A stretch of DNA of 64,000 nt from NCBI RefSeq assembly GCF_013315695.1, contig NZ_CP054353.1. One strand, written 5' to 3'. Shown piece by piece: positions 39,874 to 47,183 of this stretch (its first letter is position 1; the number at the start of each line of letters is the position of its first letter). Origin of the DNA: Escherichia coli. GTDB lineage: Bacteria; Pseudomonadota; Gammaproteobacteria; Enterobacterales; Enterobacteriaceae. The position numbers and the translations under genes were made by a program. Below the pieces are notes generated by a model. The model was not told the DNA's origin, searched no databases, and saw only the letters and a program-made list of their open reading frames with translations.

Positions 39874-41247
39874 ATGGCACTTTGGGGCGGGCGTTTTACC
39901 CAGGCAGCAGATCAACGGTTCAAACAATTCAACGACTCACTGCGCTTTGATTACCGTCTGGCGGAGCAGGATATTGTTGGCTCTGTGGCCTGGTCCAAAG
40001 CCCTGGTAACGGTCGGCGTGTTAACCGCAGAAGAGCAGGCGCAACTGGAAGAGGCGCTGAACGTGCTGCTGGAAGATGTTCGCGCCAGGCCACAACAAAT
40101 CCTTGAAAGCGACGCCGAAGATATCCATAGCTGGGTGGAAAGCAAACTGATCGACAAAGTGGGTCAGTTAGGCAAAAAGCTGCATACCGGGCGTAGCCGT
40201 AATGATCAGGTAGCGACTGACCTGAAACTGTGGTGCAAAGATACCGTTAGCGAGTTGCTGACGGCTAACCGGCAGTTACAATCCGCTCTGGTCGAGACCG
40301 CGCAGAACAATCAGGACGCGGTAATGCCAGGTTACACCCACCTGCAACGTGCTCAACCGGTGACGTTCGCGCACTGGTGCCTGGCTTACGTGGAGATGCT
40401 GGCGCGTGATGAAAGCCGCTTGCAGGATGCGCTTAAGCGTCTGGATGTCAGTCCGTTAGGCTGTGGCGCGCTGGCGGGAACGGCTTATGAAATCGACCGT
40501 GAACAGTTAGCTGGCTGGCTGGGCTTTGCTTCAGCGACCCGTAACAGTCTCGACAGCGTTTCTGACCGTGACCACGTGCTGGAACTGCTTTCTGCTGCCG
40601 CTATCGGCATGGTGCATCTGTCGCGTTTTGCTGAAGATCTGATTTTCTTTAACACCGGCGAAGCGGGGTTTGTGGAGCTTTCTGACCGTGTGACTTCCGG
40701 TTCATCATTAATGCCGCAGAAGAAAAACCCGGATGCGCTGGAGCTGATTCGCGGTAAATGCGGCCGGGTGCAGGGTGCGTTAACCGGCATGATGATGACG
40801 CTGAAAGGTTTGCCGCTGGCTTACAACAAAGATATGCAGGAAGACAAAGAAGGTCTGTTCGACGCGCTCGATACCTGGCTGGACTGCCTGCATATGGCGG
40901 CGCTGGTGCTGGATGGCATTCAGGTGAAACGTCCGCGTTGCCAGGAAGCGGCTCAGCAGGGTTACGCCAACGCCACTGAACTGGCGGATTACCTGGTGGC
41001 GAAAGGCGTACCGTTCCGCGAGGCGCACCATATTGTGGGTGAAGCGGTGGTGGAAGCCATTCGTCAGGGCAAACCGCTGGAAGATCTGCCGCTCAGTGAG
41101 TTGCAGAAATTCAGCCAGGTGATTGGCGAAGATGTCTATCCGATTCTGTCGCTACAATCGTGCCTCGACAAGCGTGCGGCAAAAGGCGGCGTCTCACCGC
41201 AGCAGGTGGCGCAGGCGATTGCTTTTGCGCAGGCTCGGTTAGAGTAA
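39874..41247 (+). CDS. argH: Argininosuccinate lyase
   Basis: 457-aa [26 protein letters not shown]; fumarate-lyase family. Confidence 0.95.
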
Positions 41248-41259
41248 TTGGTTTATATT

Positions 41260-41280
41260 GCTCCCCTGAAAATGGGGAGC
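41260..41280 (+). terminator. Stem-loop after argH (weak terminator candidate)
   Basis: gctcccc-tgaaaat-ggggagc hairpin directly after the argH stop; no strong T-run. Confidence 0.35.
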
Positions 41281-41732
41281 TTACCACGCCTATAAAGTAG
41301 CGACACTACGTAGGCGGACTGCCTCAGGCAGAAATTTGTCAGCATTCTGGTGACCTTAAATTTAACGCCCAACCAGAACTATTATTTGTCATATTCCTTT
41401 TTATTCTTGCATCTTCTTTACCTTCACTCTCCCCATGAAAATCATATTTTCAATACATCAATCAATACATATTTTAATTAATTGAATATAATTAATTTCT
41501 ATTGCTGTGCTCATTTTTAATGATTAATGGAGTTTGTTATGTGATTATTTAACGTGTTGTTTTAACGATGATGGTTAATTATTCAGGTGGTTTTTGAGGG
41601 TGTTTTTTCTCCTCGGCGGAAATTTTTATTTTTAATGTGATCACGGTTGAATAATCGCTCCTTCTCTCTTGTATGGTAGTAGGCGTAAAATTAAGTTTGA
41701 AGCGTCTATTTACAACACAGGAGATTGCAATA

Positions 41733-42947
41733 ATGAAAATTATTGCTGCAGATGTTTTTGTTACTTGCCCAGGACGTAATTTCGTTACGCTTAAAATAAC
41801 CACTGCAAGCGGACTTTGTGGATTGGGAGATGCCACATTAAATGGTCGCGAATTGTCGGTCGCTTCTTATCTGAAAGATCATCTTTGTCCACAATTAATT
41901 GGCCGCGATGCCAGCCGTATCGAAGATATCTGGCAATTCTTTTATAAAGGTGCTTACTGGCGACGTGGCCCCGTCACGATGTCGGCCATTTCTGCCATTG
42001 ATATGGCGTTGTGGGATATCAAAGCCAAAGCGGCAAATATGCCATTGTATCAACTGCTTGGTGGTGCTTCTCGTGAAGGCGTGATGGTTTATTGCCACAC
42101 CACCGGGCGCACGATTGATGAAGTCCTTGAAGACTATGCAAAGCACCAGCAGATGGGCTTTAAGGCGATTCGTGTGCAGTGCGGTGTACCGGGTATGCAA
42201 ACCACTTATGGCCTGGCGAAGGGCAAAGGACTGGCGTATGAACCGGCAACCAAAGGCCTGTGGCCGGAAGAGCAGTTGTGGTCTTCAGAAAAGTATCTCG
42301 ATTTTACACCGAAGTTATTTGAAGCGGTGCGTAATAAGTTCGGTTTTAACGAACATCTGTTGCATGACATGCACCATCGCCTGACTCCTATCGAAGCGGC
42401 GCGCTTTGGGAAGAGCATTGAGGATTACCGCCTGTTCTGGATGGAAGATCCGACGCCTGCTGAGAACCAGGAATGTTTTCGTCTGATTCGCCAGCATACT
42501 GTGACGCCGATTGCGGTCGGTGAAGTGTTTAACAGTATCTGGGACTGCAAGCAGTTAATCGAAGAGCAGCTGATTGACTATATTCGCACGACGATTACCC
42601 ATGCAGGCGGCATAACCGGGATGCGACGGATTGCCGATTTTGCATCGCTTTATCAGGTACGTACCGGTTCGCATGGCCCTTCAGATTTATCGCCTGTTTG
42701 TCATGCGGCGGCGCTGCATTTTGACCTCTGGGTGCCAAACTTTGGCGTTCAGGAGTACATGGGCTATTCCGAACAAATGCTTGAAGTCTTCCCGCATAGC
42801 TGGCGCTTCGATGAAGGTTATATGCACCCAGGCGATGAACCGGGGCTGGGTATTTCTTTCGATGAGAAACTGGCGGCGAAATATCCGTATGACCCGGCGT
42901 ATCTCCCCGTCGCACGACTGGAAGATGGCACATTGTGGAACTGGTAA
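41733..42947 (+). CDS. Enolase-superfamily sugar-acid dehydratase, RspA/ManD-like (D-mannonate/altronate dehydratase family), accessory
   Basis: ORF 41673..42947; start at ATG 41733 with AGGAG RBS 9 nt upstream; 404 aa [24 protein letters not shown]... closely resembles RspA as I recall it. Confidence 0.8.
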
Positions 42948-43013
42948 TAACAGTTCGCTTAATTATTTTCTGAATAGTCATCAAATCGATTAATTCCGCT
43001 CAAGGAGCTAAAA

Positions 43014-44297
43014 ATGGACGTTGATGTGTCAACCAGTGTTGCGGGTAATAAACCGCAACGGATTCGTCGTATTCAGACAGTAACGCTGGTTTTATTATTT
43101 ATGGCGGGGATCGTTAATTTCCTCGACCGTTCGTCATTGAGCGTGGCAGGCGAAGCGATTCGTGGCGAGTTAGGATTATCGGCGACAGAATTTGGCGTTT
43201 TGCTTTCTGCATTTTCTCTGTCTTATGGTTTTTCACAACTCCCTTCCGGTATTTTGCTAGACCGCTTTGGCCCACGAATAGTTTTAGGCGCAGGCTTAAT
43301 ATTCTGGTCATTAATGCAGGCATTAACAGGAATGGTTAATTCTTTTAGCCACTTTATTTTAATGCGTATCGGTCTGGGTATTGGCGAAGCGCCATTTATG
43401 CCTGCGGGAGTAAAATCGATCACCGACTGGTATGCGCAAAAAGAACGCGGCACGGCGCTGGGGATTTTTAACTCATCTACCGTTATCGGTCAGGCTATTG
43501 CGCCTCCTGCTCTTGTATTGATGCAGCTGGCATGGGGCTGGCGGGCAATGTTCGTCATCATCGGCGTGGCGGGGATTCTGGTTGGGATCTGTTGGTACGC
43601 GTGGTATCGCAACCGGGCGCAGTTTGTCCTGACCGACGAAGAACGGACCTATCTCTCCGCGCCGGTTAAACCGCGTCCACAATTACAATTTAGCGAGTGG
43701 CTGGCGCTGTTTAAGCATCGGACAACCTGGGGGATGATTTTAGGTTTCTCTGGCGTCAATTATACCGGTTGGCTCTACATCGCGTGGTTACCCGGTTATT
43801 TACAAGCCGAGCAAGGCTTCAGTCTGGCGAAAACCGGTTGGGTGGCGGCGATTCCTTTCCTCGCGGCGGCGGTCGGGATGTGGGTTAACGGTATTGTTGT
43901 CGATCGGCTGGCGAAAAAAGGCTACGACCTGGCGAAGACGCGTAAAACGGCTATTGTCTGCGGTTTGATGATGTCGGCATTAGGCACGTTGCTGGTCGTG
44001 CAATCCTCCTCGCCAGCCCAGGCTGTAGCGTTTATCTCAATGGCGCTGTTCTGCGTGCATTTCGCGGGAACATCTGCATGGGGACTGGTGCAGGTGATGG
44101 TGTCAGAAACAAAAGTGGCTTCCATCGCCGGGATTCAAAACTTTGGCAGTTTTGTTTTTGCTTCCTTTGCTCCGATCGTAACCGGTTGGGTAGTGGATAC
44201 CACGCACTCGTTTAATATGGCGCTGGTTATCGCGGCCTGTGTGACGTTCACCGGGGCGCTGTGTTACTTCTTTATTGTCAAAGATCGGATTGAGTAA
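43014..44297 (+). CDS. MFS transporter, probable hexuronate/aldonate (anion:cation symporter-like) permease, accessory
   Basis: 427-aa ORF with AGGAG RBS; about 12 predicted TM segments; MFS signature region GLGIGEAPFMPAGVKSITDW; 66 bp downstream of the dehydratase. Confidence 0.75.
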   Translation: MDVDVSTSVAGNKPQRIRRIQTVTLVLLFMAGIVNFLDRSSLSVAGEAIRGELGLSATEFGVLLSAFSLSYGFSQLPSGILLDRFGPRIVLGAGLIFWSLMQALTGMVNSFSHFILMRIGLGIGEAPFMPAGVKSITDWYAQKERGTALGIFNSSTVIGQAIAPPALVLMQLAWGWRAMFVIIGVAGILVGICWYAWYRNRAQFVLTDEERTYLSAPVKPRPQLQFSEWLALFKHRTTWGMILGFSGVNYTGWLYIAWLPGYLQAEQGFSLAKTGWVAAIPFLAAAVGMWVNGIVVDRLAKKGYDLAKTRKTAIVCGLMMSALGTLLVVQSSSPAQAVAFISMALFCVHFAGTSAWGLVQVMVSETKVASIAGIQNFGSFVFASFAPIVTGWVVDTTHSFNMALVIAACVTFTGALCYFFIVKDRIE

Positions 44298-44336
44298 CTG
44301 TTACTATCAGGCTCTCTTGCTGTGGGCCTGTAGAAT

Positions 44337-44453
44337 AAAAAAAAGCGGATCCTGGAGATCCGCAAAAGTTCACGTTGGCTTTAGTTATTCGAGTTGAGAA
44401 ACTCTCGAAACGGGCAGTGACTTCAAGGGTTAAAAGAGGTGCCGCTCCGTTTC
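44337..44453 (-). ncRNA. oxyS: OxyS small regulatory RNA
   Basis: Minus strand reads GAAACGGAGCGGCACCUCUUUUAACCCUUGAAGUCACUGCCCGUUUCGAGAGUUUCUCAACUCGAAUAACUAAAGCCAACGUGAACUUUUGCGGAUCUCCAGGAUCCGCUUUUUUUU, matching the OxyS sequence I recall, divergent from oxyR and ending in a terminator hairpin plus U-run. Confidence 0.85.
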
Positions 44454-44548: not shown

Positions 44549-45466
44549 ATGAATATTCGTGATCTTGAGTACCTGGTGGCATTGGCTGAACACCGCCATT
44601 TTCGGCGTGCGGCAGACTCCTGCCACGTTAGCCAGCCGACGCTTAGCGGGCAAATTCGTAAGCTGGAAGATGAGCTGGGCGTGATGTTACTGGAGCGGAC
44701 CAGCCGTAAAGTGTTGTTCACCCAGGCGGGAATGCTGCTGGTGGATCAGGCACGTACCGTGCTGCGTGAAGTGAAAGTTCTTAAAGAGATGGCAAGCCAG
44801 CAGGGCGAGACCATGTCCGGGCCGCTGCATATTGGTTTGATTCCCACGGTCGGGCCGTACCTGCTACCGCATATTATCCCGATGCTGCACCAGACCTTTC
44901 CAAAGCTGGAAATGTATCTGCATGAAGCACAGACCCACCAGTTACTGGCGCAACTGGACAGCGGCAAGCTCGATTGCGTGATCCTCGCGCTGGTGAAAGA
45001 GAGCGAAGCATTCATTGAAGTGCCGTTGTTTGATGAGCCAATGTTGCTGGCTATCTATGAAGATCACCCGTGGGCGAACCGCGAATGCGTACCGATGGCC
45101 GATCTGGCAGGAGAAAAACTGCTGATGCTGGAAGATGGTCACTGTTTGCGCGATCAGGCAATGGGGTTCTGTTTTGAAGCCGGGGCGGATGAAGATACAC
45201 ACTTCCGCGCGACCAGCCTGGAGACGCTGCGCAACATGGTGGCGGCAGGTAGCGGAATCACTTTACTGCCTGCGCTGGCTGTGCCGCCGGAACGCAAACG
45301 CGATGGGGTTGTTTATCTGCCGTGCATTAAGCCGGAACCACGCCGCACTATTGGCCTGGTTTATCGTCCTGGCTCACCACTGCGCAGCCGCTATGAGCAG
45401 CTGGCAGAGGCCATCCGCGCAAGAATGGATGGCCATTTCGATAAAGTGTTAAAACAGGCGGTTTAA
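44549..45466 (+). CDS. oxyR: LysR-family oxidative-stress regulator OxyR
   Basis: ORF 44504..45466; start trimmed to [40 protein letters not shown] giving 305 aa. Confidence 0.95.
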
Positions 45467-46849: not shown

Positions 46850-47183
46850 GGTAGGGCTTACCTGTTCTTATACATAAAAGCAACAGAATGGTAACATTTT
46901 ATCGCGGGTAAGCCAATTGATCCCCGTCATTTATCTGGCTATATCGTGAGCGGCCTTTGCTTTGTCTGTTTCTTACTTTTGACCTGAACGTTTTATTGGA
47001 TTTTTATCGACGATACTCTCCGTTTAAGCGGCAGGTTTCCGTTGTACGTAAAAGAACCGGCCAAAGAATTGCAGTAAATATGTTTTATTGCGTTACCGTT
47101 CATTCACAACACTGGAGCAATCCAGTATGTTCATTCTCTGGTATAGTGCCAGCAGTACTTTTGGCAAGGATTCAGACATCGTG

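What the first reader, a model, noticed from the sequence alone, without database searches (positions are those of the whole stretch)
41248..44336. About 3 kb accessory insertion between argH and oxyS: RspA-like dehydratase plus MFS sugar-acid permease
From memory, argH and oxyR in K-12 are separated by under 300 bp, containing only oxyS and the promoters. Here an extra two-gene operon sits between the argH stop and the oxyS terminator: a 404-aa enolase-superfamily dehydratase of the RspA / D-mannonate dehydratase family and a 427-aa MFS transporter. This looks like a compact sugar-acid (hexuronate/aldonate) uptake and dehydration module, a second copy of an rspA-like gene in addition to the canonical locus elsewhere. 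It is probably strain-variable rather than novel, but the substrate is unknown and the position next to the oxidative-stress oxyS/oxyR control region is notable.
Basis: partly seen in the sequence, partly recalled or inferred. Interest (0 to 1): 0.5.

Follow-up and report, generated by a model that had tools for sequence, protein, structure and literature searches.

The report
Strain-variable manD–transporter operon beside oxyS
Between argH and oxyS this E. coli strain carries an ordinary, already-annotated two-gene sugar-acid module (a mannonate-dehydratase paralogue of RspA plus a transporter) that a third of E. coli genomes have and K-12 lacks, and it looks like an old resident of this site that K-12-type strains lack, not a recent insertion.

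Summary
Compared with K-12-type strains, 3089 bp (41248-44336) replace a 56-bp spacer between the argH stop and the oxyS terminator. The segment holds a 404-aa ManD-subgroup dehydratase and a 427-aa MFS transporter. RefSeq already annotates it as "manD" plus "MFS transporter" in 1868 of 5426 complete E. coli genomes, including CFT073. 3553 genomes carry one uniform empty allele.

"Insertion" is not supported. The segment has no mobility signature. Its divergence and dS track the flanking argH and oxyR, with dN/dS of 0.01-0.04. It sits at the same site in three other Escherichia species and in a Citrobacter, where manD is decayed.

In other enterobacterial genera the transporter's orthologue lies inside the rspA-rspB-ydfJ-ydfI cluster. 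In Rouxiella it is paired with uxuA. The island promoter is a paralogue of the rspA promoter: same CRP half-site, same spacing, and an invariant TTGTATGGTAGT block overlapping the published RspR box, whose left half is degenerate here.

The most likely function is CRP- and possibly RspR-controlled uptake of D-mannonate or a close aldonate, followed by dehydration to KDG. The substrate is not shown. The position next to oxyS/oxyR appears incidental. This is an ordinary, low-novelty finding.

The parts
39874..41247 (+). argH (left flank). Homology with K-12-type strains ends at its stop codon.
41260..41280 (+). Hairpin GCTCCCC-TGAAAAT-GGGGAGC just after argH. No U-tract follows, so it is not a canonical intrinsic terminator.
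   Evidence: conserved in other carriers
41287..41331 (.). REP/BIME-like palindromic unit at the left end of the segment. The window's copy has a 12-bp deletion relative to most carriers.
   Evidence: identification as REP is from my knowledge of the REP consensus
41332..41635 (+). AT-rich (about 30% GC) upstream leader. It contains a block, TAACGTGTTGTTTTAACGAT (41550-41569), that is conserved with Citrobacter. Function unknown.
41636..41644 (+). TGTGATCAC, a CRP-type half-site. It lies 20 nt upstream of the box at 41665-41682 (29 nt from the T of TGTGA to the first base of the box), the same spacing as in the E. coli rspA promoter.
   Evidence: a CRP site at rspAp is stated in bioRxiv 10.1101/2025.05.13.653802
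41665..41682 (+). TCTCTTGTATGGTAGTAG, the equivalent of the RspR box region of rspAp (ATACTTGTATGGTAGTAG). The left half-site is degenerate. TTGTAT (41669-41674) is the -35-like hexamer.
   Evidence: RspR box ATACnnGTAT from PMC8249747
41692..41703 (+). -10-like TAAGTT (41692-41697) and predicted transcription start at C41703. This is 30 nt before the ATG, as mapped for rspA.
   Evidence: Inference by alignment to rspAp and PMC8249747. Not measured.
41733..42947 (+). manD: a 404-aa enolase-superfamily dehydratase of the ManD subgroup, a paralogue of RspA.
43014..44297 (+). A 427-aa MFS transporter of the organic-anion (DgoT-like) type.
44299..44337 (+). Conserved hairpin after the MFS stop, followed by an A-run rather than a U-tract. 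There is no canonical + strand terminator before oxyS.
44344..44453 (-). oxyS sRNA with its terminator (right flank, unaltered).
44549..45466 (+). oxyR (right flank).

Best explanation
The segment is a chromosomal two-gene operon, manD followed by an MFS gene. It is an old, vertically evolving but frequently lost part of the Escherichia argH-oxyS intergenic region, not a mobile insertion.

It is a satellite of the rspA/ydf sugar-acid cluster. Its dehydratase is an ancient paralogue of RspA. Its transporter is the orthologue of an MFS that sits inside the rspA-rspB-ydfJ-ydfI cluster in other enterobacterial genera.

Its promoter is a paralogue of the rspA promoter. It has a CRP half-site about 61 nt upstream of the predicted start, and the conserved TTGTATGGTAGT block that overlaps the -35 region and the RspR operator.

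The proposed mechanism is inferred. When glucose is absent and the repressor is relieved, the transporter imports D-mannonate or a closely related aldonate by proton symport. ManD dehydrates it to 2-keto-3-deoxy-D-gluconate (KDG), which enters the KdgK/Eda route.

Shown here: anatomy, population frequency, orthology, purifying selection, catalytic residues and promoter homology. Inferred: substrate, direction of transport, and regulation by CRP and RspR.
For: Distribution and age:
- Junctions are exact, and the segment is in 1868 of 5426 genomes. 3553 genomes share one uniform empty allele.
- The same site is occupied in E. whittamii, Escherichia sp. E1V33 and sp. MOD1-EC7003. In Citrobacter sp. 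R56 the site is occupied too, with manD reduced to joined 5' and 3' remnants.
- Divergence matches the flanks. Against E. coli lineages, manD is 97.6-98.3% and the MFS 97.1-97.4% identical, versus argH 96.7-97.0%. Against the two other Escherichia species compared, the values are 93-96.5% versus 93-94%.
- dS of manD and the MFS (0.07-0.37) is comparable to dS of argH (0.13-0.32). dN/dS is 0.012-0.043, like argH at 0.023-0.036.
- There are no terminal repeats and no tRNA, and no integrase or transposase among the ORFs or annotated features.

Gene identities:
- ManD scores 731 bits against NCBIfam NF043051, whose cutoff is 550. It is 91.6% identical to E. coli RspA, and PDB 4IL2 is the top hit.
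- R147, Y159, D212, H214, E238 and E264 are all present.
- manD versus rspA has dS of 1.87, so this is an ancient paralogy. The island copies form their own clade.
- The MFS's best solved relative is DgoT. The residues aligned with DgoT D46, R47 and E133 are conserved.

Functional coupling:
- MFS orthologues (82-89% aa) lie next to rspA, rspB, ydfJ and a fructuronate-reductase-like ydfI in Enterobacter, Raoultella, Lelliottia, Siccibacter and others.
- In Rouxiella the 70% orthologue is followed by uxuA (TIGR00695, 644 bits).

Promoter:
- TGTGATC-N26-TTGTATGGTAGT occurs once in the 64-kb window and in none of 100 shuffles.
- The 12-mer is invariant in front of rspA, MFS and ydfI units in all genera examined.
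- The distance from the box to the ATG is 64 nt, versus 65 nt in rspA.
- The RspR box, its footprint and the rspA start site are published in PMC8249747. A CRP site at rspAp is stated.
- rspR is present in 5417 of 5426 E. coli genomes.
Against: - No experiment on this paralogue was found in the searchable literature.
- From my memory of Wichelecki et al. 2014 (Biochemistry 53:2722 and 53:5692; not readable here), the 91.6%-identical RspA of CFT073 is a low-efficiency ManD. No physiological role could be assigned to it, and E. coli already has UxuA. D-mannonate may therefore not be the true substrate.
- The published RspR palindrome ATACnnGTAT is only half present (TCTCTTGTAT), so RspR control is uncertain.
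- The MFS scores below the TIGR00893 cutoff (275 versus 395).
- Signs of dispensability: about 65% of E. coli lack the segment; the MFS has an internal stop in BEN2908; it has a 276-bp in-frame deletion in strain 4973; and manD is decayed in Citrobacter R56.
- Polarity is not proven. The empty site could not be examined in outgroup species, and the species representatives of E. albertii, E. fergusonii and Salmonella gave no hit.
Confidence: 0.6

Rival explanations
1. One reading: a recently acquired accessory genomic islet was inserted between argH and oxyS in this lineage.
For: The segment is absent from K-12 and from 3553 of 5426 genomes. It has an AT-rich (about 30% GC) 5' part. The same intergenic site holds a 12-kb haplotype with 8 extra sugar genes in 147 genomes, so the site tolerates gene gain. 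The distribution among species representatives is patchy.
Against: There are no integrase, transposase, tRNA or flanking repeats. Coding GC is about 50%, like the flanks. Divergence and dS match the flanks across E. coli lineages and two other Escherichia species. An orthologous, decayed copy sits at the same site in Citrobacter, with 78% nt identity for the MFS against 84-85% for the flanks.
Confidence: 0.1
2. The operon is an evolutionary relic. It is a cryptic, low-efficiency pathway with no present physiological role, on its way to being lost.
For: It is lost in about 65% of genomes. Examples of decay are the MFS internal stop in BEN2908, the 276-bp MFS deletion in strain 4973, and the manD remnant in Citrobacter R56. 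From memory, Wichelecki et al. 2014 concluded that low-efficiency ManDs, including CFT073 RspA, may be relics or starting points for new functions. UxuA already provides mannonate dehydratase activity.
Against: dN/dS is 0.012-0.043 for both genes, as low as housekeeping argH, over divergences up to dS 0.37. The promoter elements are perfectly conserved across Escherichia. All catalytic and proton-coupling residues are intact.
Confidence: 0.15
3. The module acts on a different sugar acid, such as D-gluconate, L-gulonate, L-idonate or another aldonate. Alternatively, like RspA in the older literature, it modulates a starvation or stationary-phase signal rather than feeding catabolism.
For: From memory of Wichelecki 2014, the ManD subgroup includes members that act on D-gluconate or have no known activity. 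There are ten island-specific substitutions, two of which (Q156, L161) flank the catalytic Y159 in the 150-180s loop. The rsp cluster context links to L-gulonate/fructuronate enzymes. rspAB has reported stationary-phase effects (PMC13034041; PMC8249747).
Against: The module contains no oxidoreductase, so the imported compound must itself be the dehydratase substrate. The transporter is paired with the unrelated mannonate dehydratase UxuA in Rouxiella, which points to mannonate specifically. The substitutions are few and conservative.
Confidence: 0.15

Closest known systems
RspA of E. coli (starvation-sensing protein; ManD subgroup of the enolase superfamily; PDB 4IL2 from CFT073)
   Same: Both are 404 aa with 91.6% aa identity. 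The metal ligands and the Tyr/Arg and His catalytic residues are identical. The promoter architecture is the same: CRP half-site, spacing, TTGTATGGTAGT block, and distance to the ATG.
   Different: It is a separate, ancient paralogue (dS 1.87; own clade). It lies at 89 min next to oxyS rather than at the ynfA-rspA locus. It is followed by an MFS gene instead of rspB. The left half of the RspR palindrome is lost. It is present in only about a third of strains.
The rspA-rspB-ydfJ-ydfI (RspR regulon) cluster, linked to cryptic L-gulonate catabolism in CFT073 (Wichelecki et al. 2014, from memory)
   Same: In other enterobacterial genera the orthologous MFS is a member of this cluster and carries the same promoter box.
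   Different: The E. coli segment holds only the dehydratase and this transporter. It has no dehydrogenase or reductase, so it cannot convert L-gulonate by itself.
DgoT, the E. coli D-galactonate:H+ symporter (PDB 6E9N/6E9O; SLC17-related organic anion transporters)
   Same: It is the best solved relative, aligned over residues 13-424. The residues aligned with DgoT D46, R47 and E133 are conserved.
   Different: The similarity is distant: 198 bits against DgoT, and below the TIGR00893 cutoff. It is paired with a mannonate dehydratase, not with galactonate enzymes.
UxuA-based mannonate dehydration (the uxuAB hexuronate pathway)
   Same: The reaction product is the same (KDG). In Rouxiella the orthologous transporter is paired with uxuA and a UxuR/ExuR-like GntR regulator.
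   Different: UxuA is an unrelated fold. The E. coli uxu operon has no dedicated mannonate importer.

Membership tests
ManD subgroup, enolase superfamily | Three carboxylate Mg2+ ligands on the barrel (D210/E236/E262 in N. aromaticivorans numbering, recalled from Rakus et al. 2007) | tested here: met
   D212, E238 and E264 lie in the LLHDMHH, WMEDP and AVGEVF motifs, and are identical in the alignment with 4IL2.
ManD subgroup, enolase superfamily | Tyr-Arg dyad general base in the 150-180s loop, plus the His general acid | tested here: met
   R147, Y159 and H214 are present. Their roles are from memory of the literature.
ManD subgroup, enolase superfamily | Score above the curated cutoff of the ManD equivalog model | tested here: met
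   NF043051 scores 731.5 bits against a cutoff of 550, over the full length.
ManD subgroup, enolase superfamily | Dehydration of D-mannonate to KDG in vitro | not testable with these tools
   This needs an enzyme assay. The closest characterised relative, RspA, is low-efficiency (from memory).
DgoT-like organic-anion:H+ MFS symporters (ACS family / TIGR00893) | Score above the TIGR00893 subfamily cutoff | tested here: not met
   275.6 bits against a cutoff of 395. It is still the best-scoring family.
DgoT-like organic-anion:H+ MFS symporters (ACS family / TIGR00893) | Conserved proton-coupling acidic residues and the carboxylate-binding arginine (DgoT D46, R47, E133; roles from memory of Leano et al. 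2019) | tested here: met
   D38, R39 and E125 align with them. There is a Pfam MFS_1 hit on the identical-length product.
RspR (YdfH) regulon | RspR box palindrome ATACnnGTAT at the promoter (PMC8249747) | tested here: not met
   The island has TCTCTTGTAT. The right half is intact and only 1 of 4 bases of the left half matches.
RspR (YdfH) regulon | Homology with the footprinted rspA promoter region and its geometry | tested here: met
   CTTGTATGGTAGTAG is identical. TGTGATCAC is at the same spacing. The box-to-ATG distance is 64 versus 65 nt. The match is unique in the window.
RspR (YdfH) regulon | Binding and repression by RspR | not testable with these tools
   K-12, where gSELEX found a single RspR target, lacks this segment.
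Mobile genomic island | Integrase or transposase, a tRNA or att site, flanking direct repeats, and atypical composition of the genes | tested here: not met
   None was found. Divergence is congruent with the flanks.

The most novel reading that the evidence does not exclude
In the roughly one third of E. coli that carry it, including CFT073, this operon is a second and so far unrecognised member of the RspR/CRP-controlled rsp regulon. It supplies the missing importer, plus a redundant dehydratase, for D-mannonate or a related aldonate. It would give carriers a growth substrate K-12 cannot use. It could also help explain why deleting rspA alone in CFT073 gave no phenotype.
Probability: 0.3. Interest if true: 0.4.

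Novelty: already known. Interest (0 to 1): 0.25.

Why it matters
The main value is as a correction and a pointer. The segment is a known, annotated, strain-variable metabolic module, so it is not a discovery.

Three points are useful to people working on E. coli sugar-acid metabolism and the rsp genes:

- K-12 work on RspR as a "single-target regulator" could not have seen this promoter, because K-12 lacks it.
- CFT073, the strain I recall being used to probe RspA function, carries this second ManD-subgroup paralogue.
- The transporter's pairing with either ManD or UxuA across genera gives a concrete substrate hypothesis, D-mannonate uptake, that a simple growth test can check.

The locus is also a clean example of an old presence/absence polymorphism maintained across E. 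coli lineages.

Tried and rejected
- The Wichelecki et al. 2014 papers on ManD/RspA function could not be read by DOI or PMC id. What I say about them is from memory.
- Full-text searches for this locus (argH/oxyR/manD; L-gulonate/CFT073; manD/accessory) found no paper that describes it.
- The consensus promoter scan did not flag the island promoter. It found only the oxyR/oxyS-side sites. The promoter was instead found by comparison with rspA-cluster upstream regions.
- Distant MFS relatives (42-43% identity) in Allorhizobium and a Bryobacteraceae MAG have different neighbours and gave no usable functional hint.
- I looked up OxyR-encoding contigs hoping for outgroup species with an empty site. 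The 10 places returned repeated the island and empty arrangements already seen in E. coli and did not show an outgroup empty site. Polarity could therefore not be settled with outgroup spacers.
- I compared the K-12 56-bp spacer by eye with the island ends. They share 'TTTATAT' after the stop and a 'GCTTATC' REP-like motif. This is too weak to call the spacer a deletion scar.
- I considered a functional link with oxyS/oxyR and rejected it. oxyS, its terminator and the control region are unchanged. The only difference is that the converging upstream transcription unit lacks a canonical terminator.
Full report
**1. What is in the sequence**

The ORF list shows argC, argB and argH (39874-41247). 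A 485-bp non-coding stretch follows, then a dehydratase ORF, an MFS ORF (43014-44297), oxyR (44549-45466) and sthA on the minus strand. The mechanical dehydratase ORF starts at 41673, but the RefSeq start is the ATG at 41733, which gives 404 aa ending at 42947. Rfam finds a full-length OxyS at 44344-44453 on the minus strand (139.5 bits). GC content drops to 31-37% in 41200-41800 and is about 50% over the two genes, like the flanks.

I compared the window base by base with a K-12-type strain. Identity runs up to the argH stop codon and resumes at 44337, the A-run in front of the oxyS terminator hairpin. In between, K-12-type strains have 56 bp that include a canonical argH terminator (GCCTGGCTTATCGCCGGGC followed by T6). 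The window has 3089 bp there. In MG1655 itself the argH-oxyR gap is 266 bp and holds only oxyS. The observation and its coordinates are therefore exact.

**2. How common it is**

Megablast against 5426 complete E. coli genomes finds the segment at over 95% identity in 1868 of them, always on the chromosome. RefSeq annotates it as "manD: D-mannonate dehydratase ManD" plus "MFS transporter". The window is 100% identical to isolate AF3 (NZ_OZ547117.1; blood culture, UK).

The K-12-type junction is found, nearly invariant, in 3553 genomes. Together the two alleles account for 5421 of the 5426 genomes.

The reference uropathogen CFT073 carries the segment (C_RS23255 and C_RS23260), as does the avian strain BEN2908.

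A third haplotype exists in 147 genomes. There an araD-like gene, a DeoR regulator, a four-gene sugar ABC transporter, an L-ribulose-5-P 3-epimerase and an FGGY kinase lie between argH and manD. They replace the first 281 bp of the segment.

**3. Insertion or old resident?**

Nothing marks a mobile element. There is no integrase or transposase, no tRNA and no direct or inverted repeats at the ends.

A scan of one genome per bacterial species with the MFS protein found the same argH-manD-MFS-oxyR arrangement in Escherichia sp. E1V33 and E. whittamii. Escherichia sp. MOD1-EC7003 shows manD-MFS-oxyR-sthA, but its contig ends inside manD. Citrobacter sp. R56 has argH-[manD remnant]-MFS-oxyR. In that Citrobacter the first ~100 and last ~80 nt of manD are joined by an internal deletion. 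The promoter-proximal leader is still recognisably homologous.

Divergence of the segment tracks its flanks:

| Comparison with the window | manD nt identity | MFS nt identity | argH nt identity |
|---|---|---|---|
| E. coli lineages BEN2908, CUPS TF, A1_136 | 97.6-98.3% | 97.1-97.4% | 96.7-97.0% (not available for A1_136) |
| Escherichia sp. E1V33 and E. whittamii | 93-96.5% | ~94% | 93-94% |
| Citrobacter sp. R56 | remnant only | 78% | 84.6% (oxyR 83.9%) |

Synonymous divergence of manD and the MFS (0.07-0.37) is of the same order as that of argH (0.13-0.32). dN/dS is 0.012-0.043 for both genes, the same as argH at 0.023-0.036.

The segment has therefore been evolving in place, under purifying selection, since before E. 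coli split from these other Escherichia species, and probably longer. Calling it an insertion into a K-12-like ancestor is not supported. The K-12 state is more simply a loss, or an alternative old allele spread by recombination.

I could not settle polarity fully, because I could not retrieve the empty-site spacer of outgroup species. The representatives of E. albertii, E. fergusonii and Salmonella gave no hit.

Decay does occur:
- The MFS has an internal stop in BEN2908.
- The MFS has a 276-bp in-frame deletion in strain 4973.
- manD is destroyed in Citrobacter R56.

**4. The two proteins**

The dehydratase scores 731 bits against the NCBIfam ManD equivalog, whose cutoff is 550. Its best solved relatives are RspA of CFT073 (4IL2) and 4E4F. 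It is 91.6% identical in protein and 80.3% in DNA to E. coli RspA, and 91-94% identical to the RspA proteins of other genera. Those are 93-95% identical to E. coli RspA.

dS against rspA is saturated at 1.87, and the island copies form their own clade. It is therefore an old paralogue, not a recent duplicate.

The catalytic set is complete: R147, Y159, D212, H214, E238 and E264 (the roles of these residues are from my memory of Rakus et al. 2007). Only ten positions are island-specific and most changes are conservative. Two of them (Q156 and L161) flank Y159.

The MFS is most similar to the D-galactonate:H+ symporter DgoT (6E9N; 198 bits). The residues aligned with DgoT D46, R47 and E133 are conserved. 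It falls below the TIGR00893 cutoff, so it is a relative of that subfamily, not a member by the curated threshold.

**5. Context in other genera gives the functional lead**

In Enterobacter, Raoultella, Lelliottia, Siccibacter, Pluralibacter, Atlantibacter and a Klebsiella MAG, the orthologous MFS (82-89% aa) lies inside the canonical rspA cluster next to speG and ynfB. The order is either MFS-rspA-rspB-ydfJ-ydfI or rspA-MFS-rspB-ydfJ-ydfI, with the rspR (ydfH) regulator nearby.

NCBIfam identifies the neighbours as the RspB-type Zn-dependent oxidoreductase, a metabolite/H+ symporter and a fructuronate-reductase-family enzyme. The canonical E. coli locus has rspA-rspB but not this MFS.

In Rouxiella badensis the 70% orthologue is followed directly by uxuA, the unrelated classical mannonate dehydratase (TIGR00695, 644 bits). 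A UxuR/ExuR-like regulator is transcribed divergently.

The same transporter is thus paired with either of two analogous mannonate dehydratases, with no oxidoreductase in the operon. This is the best available argument that the imported compound is D-mannonate itself or something very close to it.

**6. The promoter**

I compared upstream regions. The island leader carries TGTGATCAC (41636-41644) and, 20 nt further on, TCTCTTGTATGGTAGTAG (41665-41682). The E. coli rspA promoter has TGTGATCAC, the same 20-nt spacing, and ATACTTGTATGGTAGTAG.

The 12-mer TTGTATGGTAGT is invariant in 28 distinct promoter sequences. These lie in front of rspA, the MFS and ydfI units in all genera examined, in front of a solitary MFS in Shimwellia, and in the Citrobacter island. 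The combined pattern occurs once in the 64-kb window and in none of 100 shuffles.

Shimada et al. (PMC8249747) footprinted RspR on 31 bp of the rspA promoter centred on ATACnnGTAT. They mapped the start 30 bp before the ATG and showed repression by RspR. [quoted passage not shown]

By alignment, the island promoter has these predicted elements:
- a -35-like TTGTAT at 41669-41674;
- a -10-like TAAGTT at 41692-41697;
- a start at C41703, 30 nt before the ATG.

The distance from the box to the ATG is 64 nt, against 65 nt in rspA.

The left half of the RspR palindrome is not conserved. The island has TCTC, MFS and ydfI units have CTTC or ATTC, and rspA units have ATAC. RspR control is therefore plausible but not established. 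rspR itself is present in 5417 of 5426 E. coli genomes. K-12, in which RspR was classed as a single-target regulator, lacks this promoter.

**7. Relation to oxyS/oxyR**

oxyS, its terminator and the oxyS-oxyR control region are intact and 97.6-100% identical to other strains. I see no functional link.

There is one structural difference. The K-12 haplotype ends the converging argH transcript with a canonical terminator. In the island haplotype, the hairpin after argH (41260-41280) and the conserved hairpin after the MFS (44299-44337) are not followed by U-tracts. Read-through antisense to oxyS is therefore possible, but untested.

**8. Verdict**

This is a real, precisely delimited, strain-variable segment that public annotation already names.

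It is an old resident, frequently lost. Its affinities are with the rsp regulon, not with oxidative stress.

The best mechanistic reading is CRP- and possibly RspR-controlled import of D-mannonate or a close aldonate, followed by dehydration to KDG. The substrate remains unproven.

The nearest characterised relative, RspA, is a low-efficiency enzyme without an assigned physiological role. This is from my memory of Wichelecki et al. 2014, which could not be read here.

Novelty is low. Interest is modest and lies in the testable regulon and substrate hypotheses.

Noticed in passing
L030 (NZ_CP040390.1 4996000-5016000), between argH and manD; also L028: There is a third haplotype of the argH-oxyS gap. 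About 9 kb hold an araD-like gene, a DeoR regulator, a four-gene sugar ABC transporter, an L-ribulose-5-P 3-epimerase and an FGGY kinase, inserted upstream of manD. They replace the first 281 bp of the segment. It is present in 147 of 5426 genomes and nearly identical among them.
   Followed up: partly
Between sthA and fabR, window ~46850-47180; compare L026 9944-11101 and L035/L037/L040/L041 7131-9656: A second presence/absence polymorphism lies 3 kb away. Some E. coli carry an M20 aminoacylase gene plus an MFS sugar-transporter gene between sthA and fabR; the window does not. All four combinations with the manD segment occur (L032, L033, L035, L041), so the two polymorphisms assort independently.
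   Followed up: no
window 41287-41331: A REP/BIME-like palindromic unit sits at the left end of the segment. The window's copy has a 12-bp deletion relative to most E. coli carriers. E. whittamii and Escherichia sp. E1V33 have an extra REP copy there.
   Followed up: partly
window 41550-41569, within the AT-rich leader 41332-41635: The block TAACGTGTTGTTTTAACGAT contains a TTTAACG direct repeat and is conserved between Escherichia and Citrobacter, about 100 nt upstream of the promoter. Its function is unknown. The preprint read reports an unidentified repressor site near -100 at the rspA promoter.
   Followed up: no
L026 5779-7062 (BEN2908); L029 5767-6774 (strain 4973); L019 6700-6900 (Citrobacter sp. 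R56): Independent decay events: an internal stop in the MFS of BEN2908, a 276-bp in-frame deletion in the MFS of strain 4973 and relatives, and an internal deletion that leaves only the ends of manD in Citrobacter sp. R56.
   Followed up: partly
L013 10820; L014 12193; L015 6901: The TTGTATGGTAGT promoter block also precedes ydfI (fructuronate-reductase-like) in Lelliottia and Raoultella, and a solitary copy of the MFS in Shimwellia that has no dehydratase nearby. This suggests a multi-promoter regulon in those genera.
   Followed up: partly
L009 (CACSKA010000003.1): The record is labelled Chryseobacterium sp. 18061, yet it carries an enterobacterial rsp cluster nearly identical to that of Citrobacter sp. 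18056 (L021). This is probably a mislabelled or contaminated assembly.
   Followed up: no
window 41248-41290 and 44298-44343: In the island haplotype neither argH nor the MFS gene is followed by a canonical intrinsic terminator. The K-12 haplotype has a strong one after argH. Transcription converging on oxyS may therefore differ between haplotypes.
   Followed up: partly
H128 (NZ_CP133919.1, strain M21170): This genome matches the K-12-type junction only up to query base 113 and has a second place. This suggests yet another insertion or rearrangement at the same junction.
   Followed up: no
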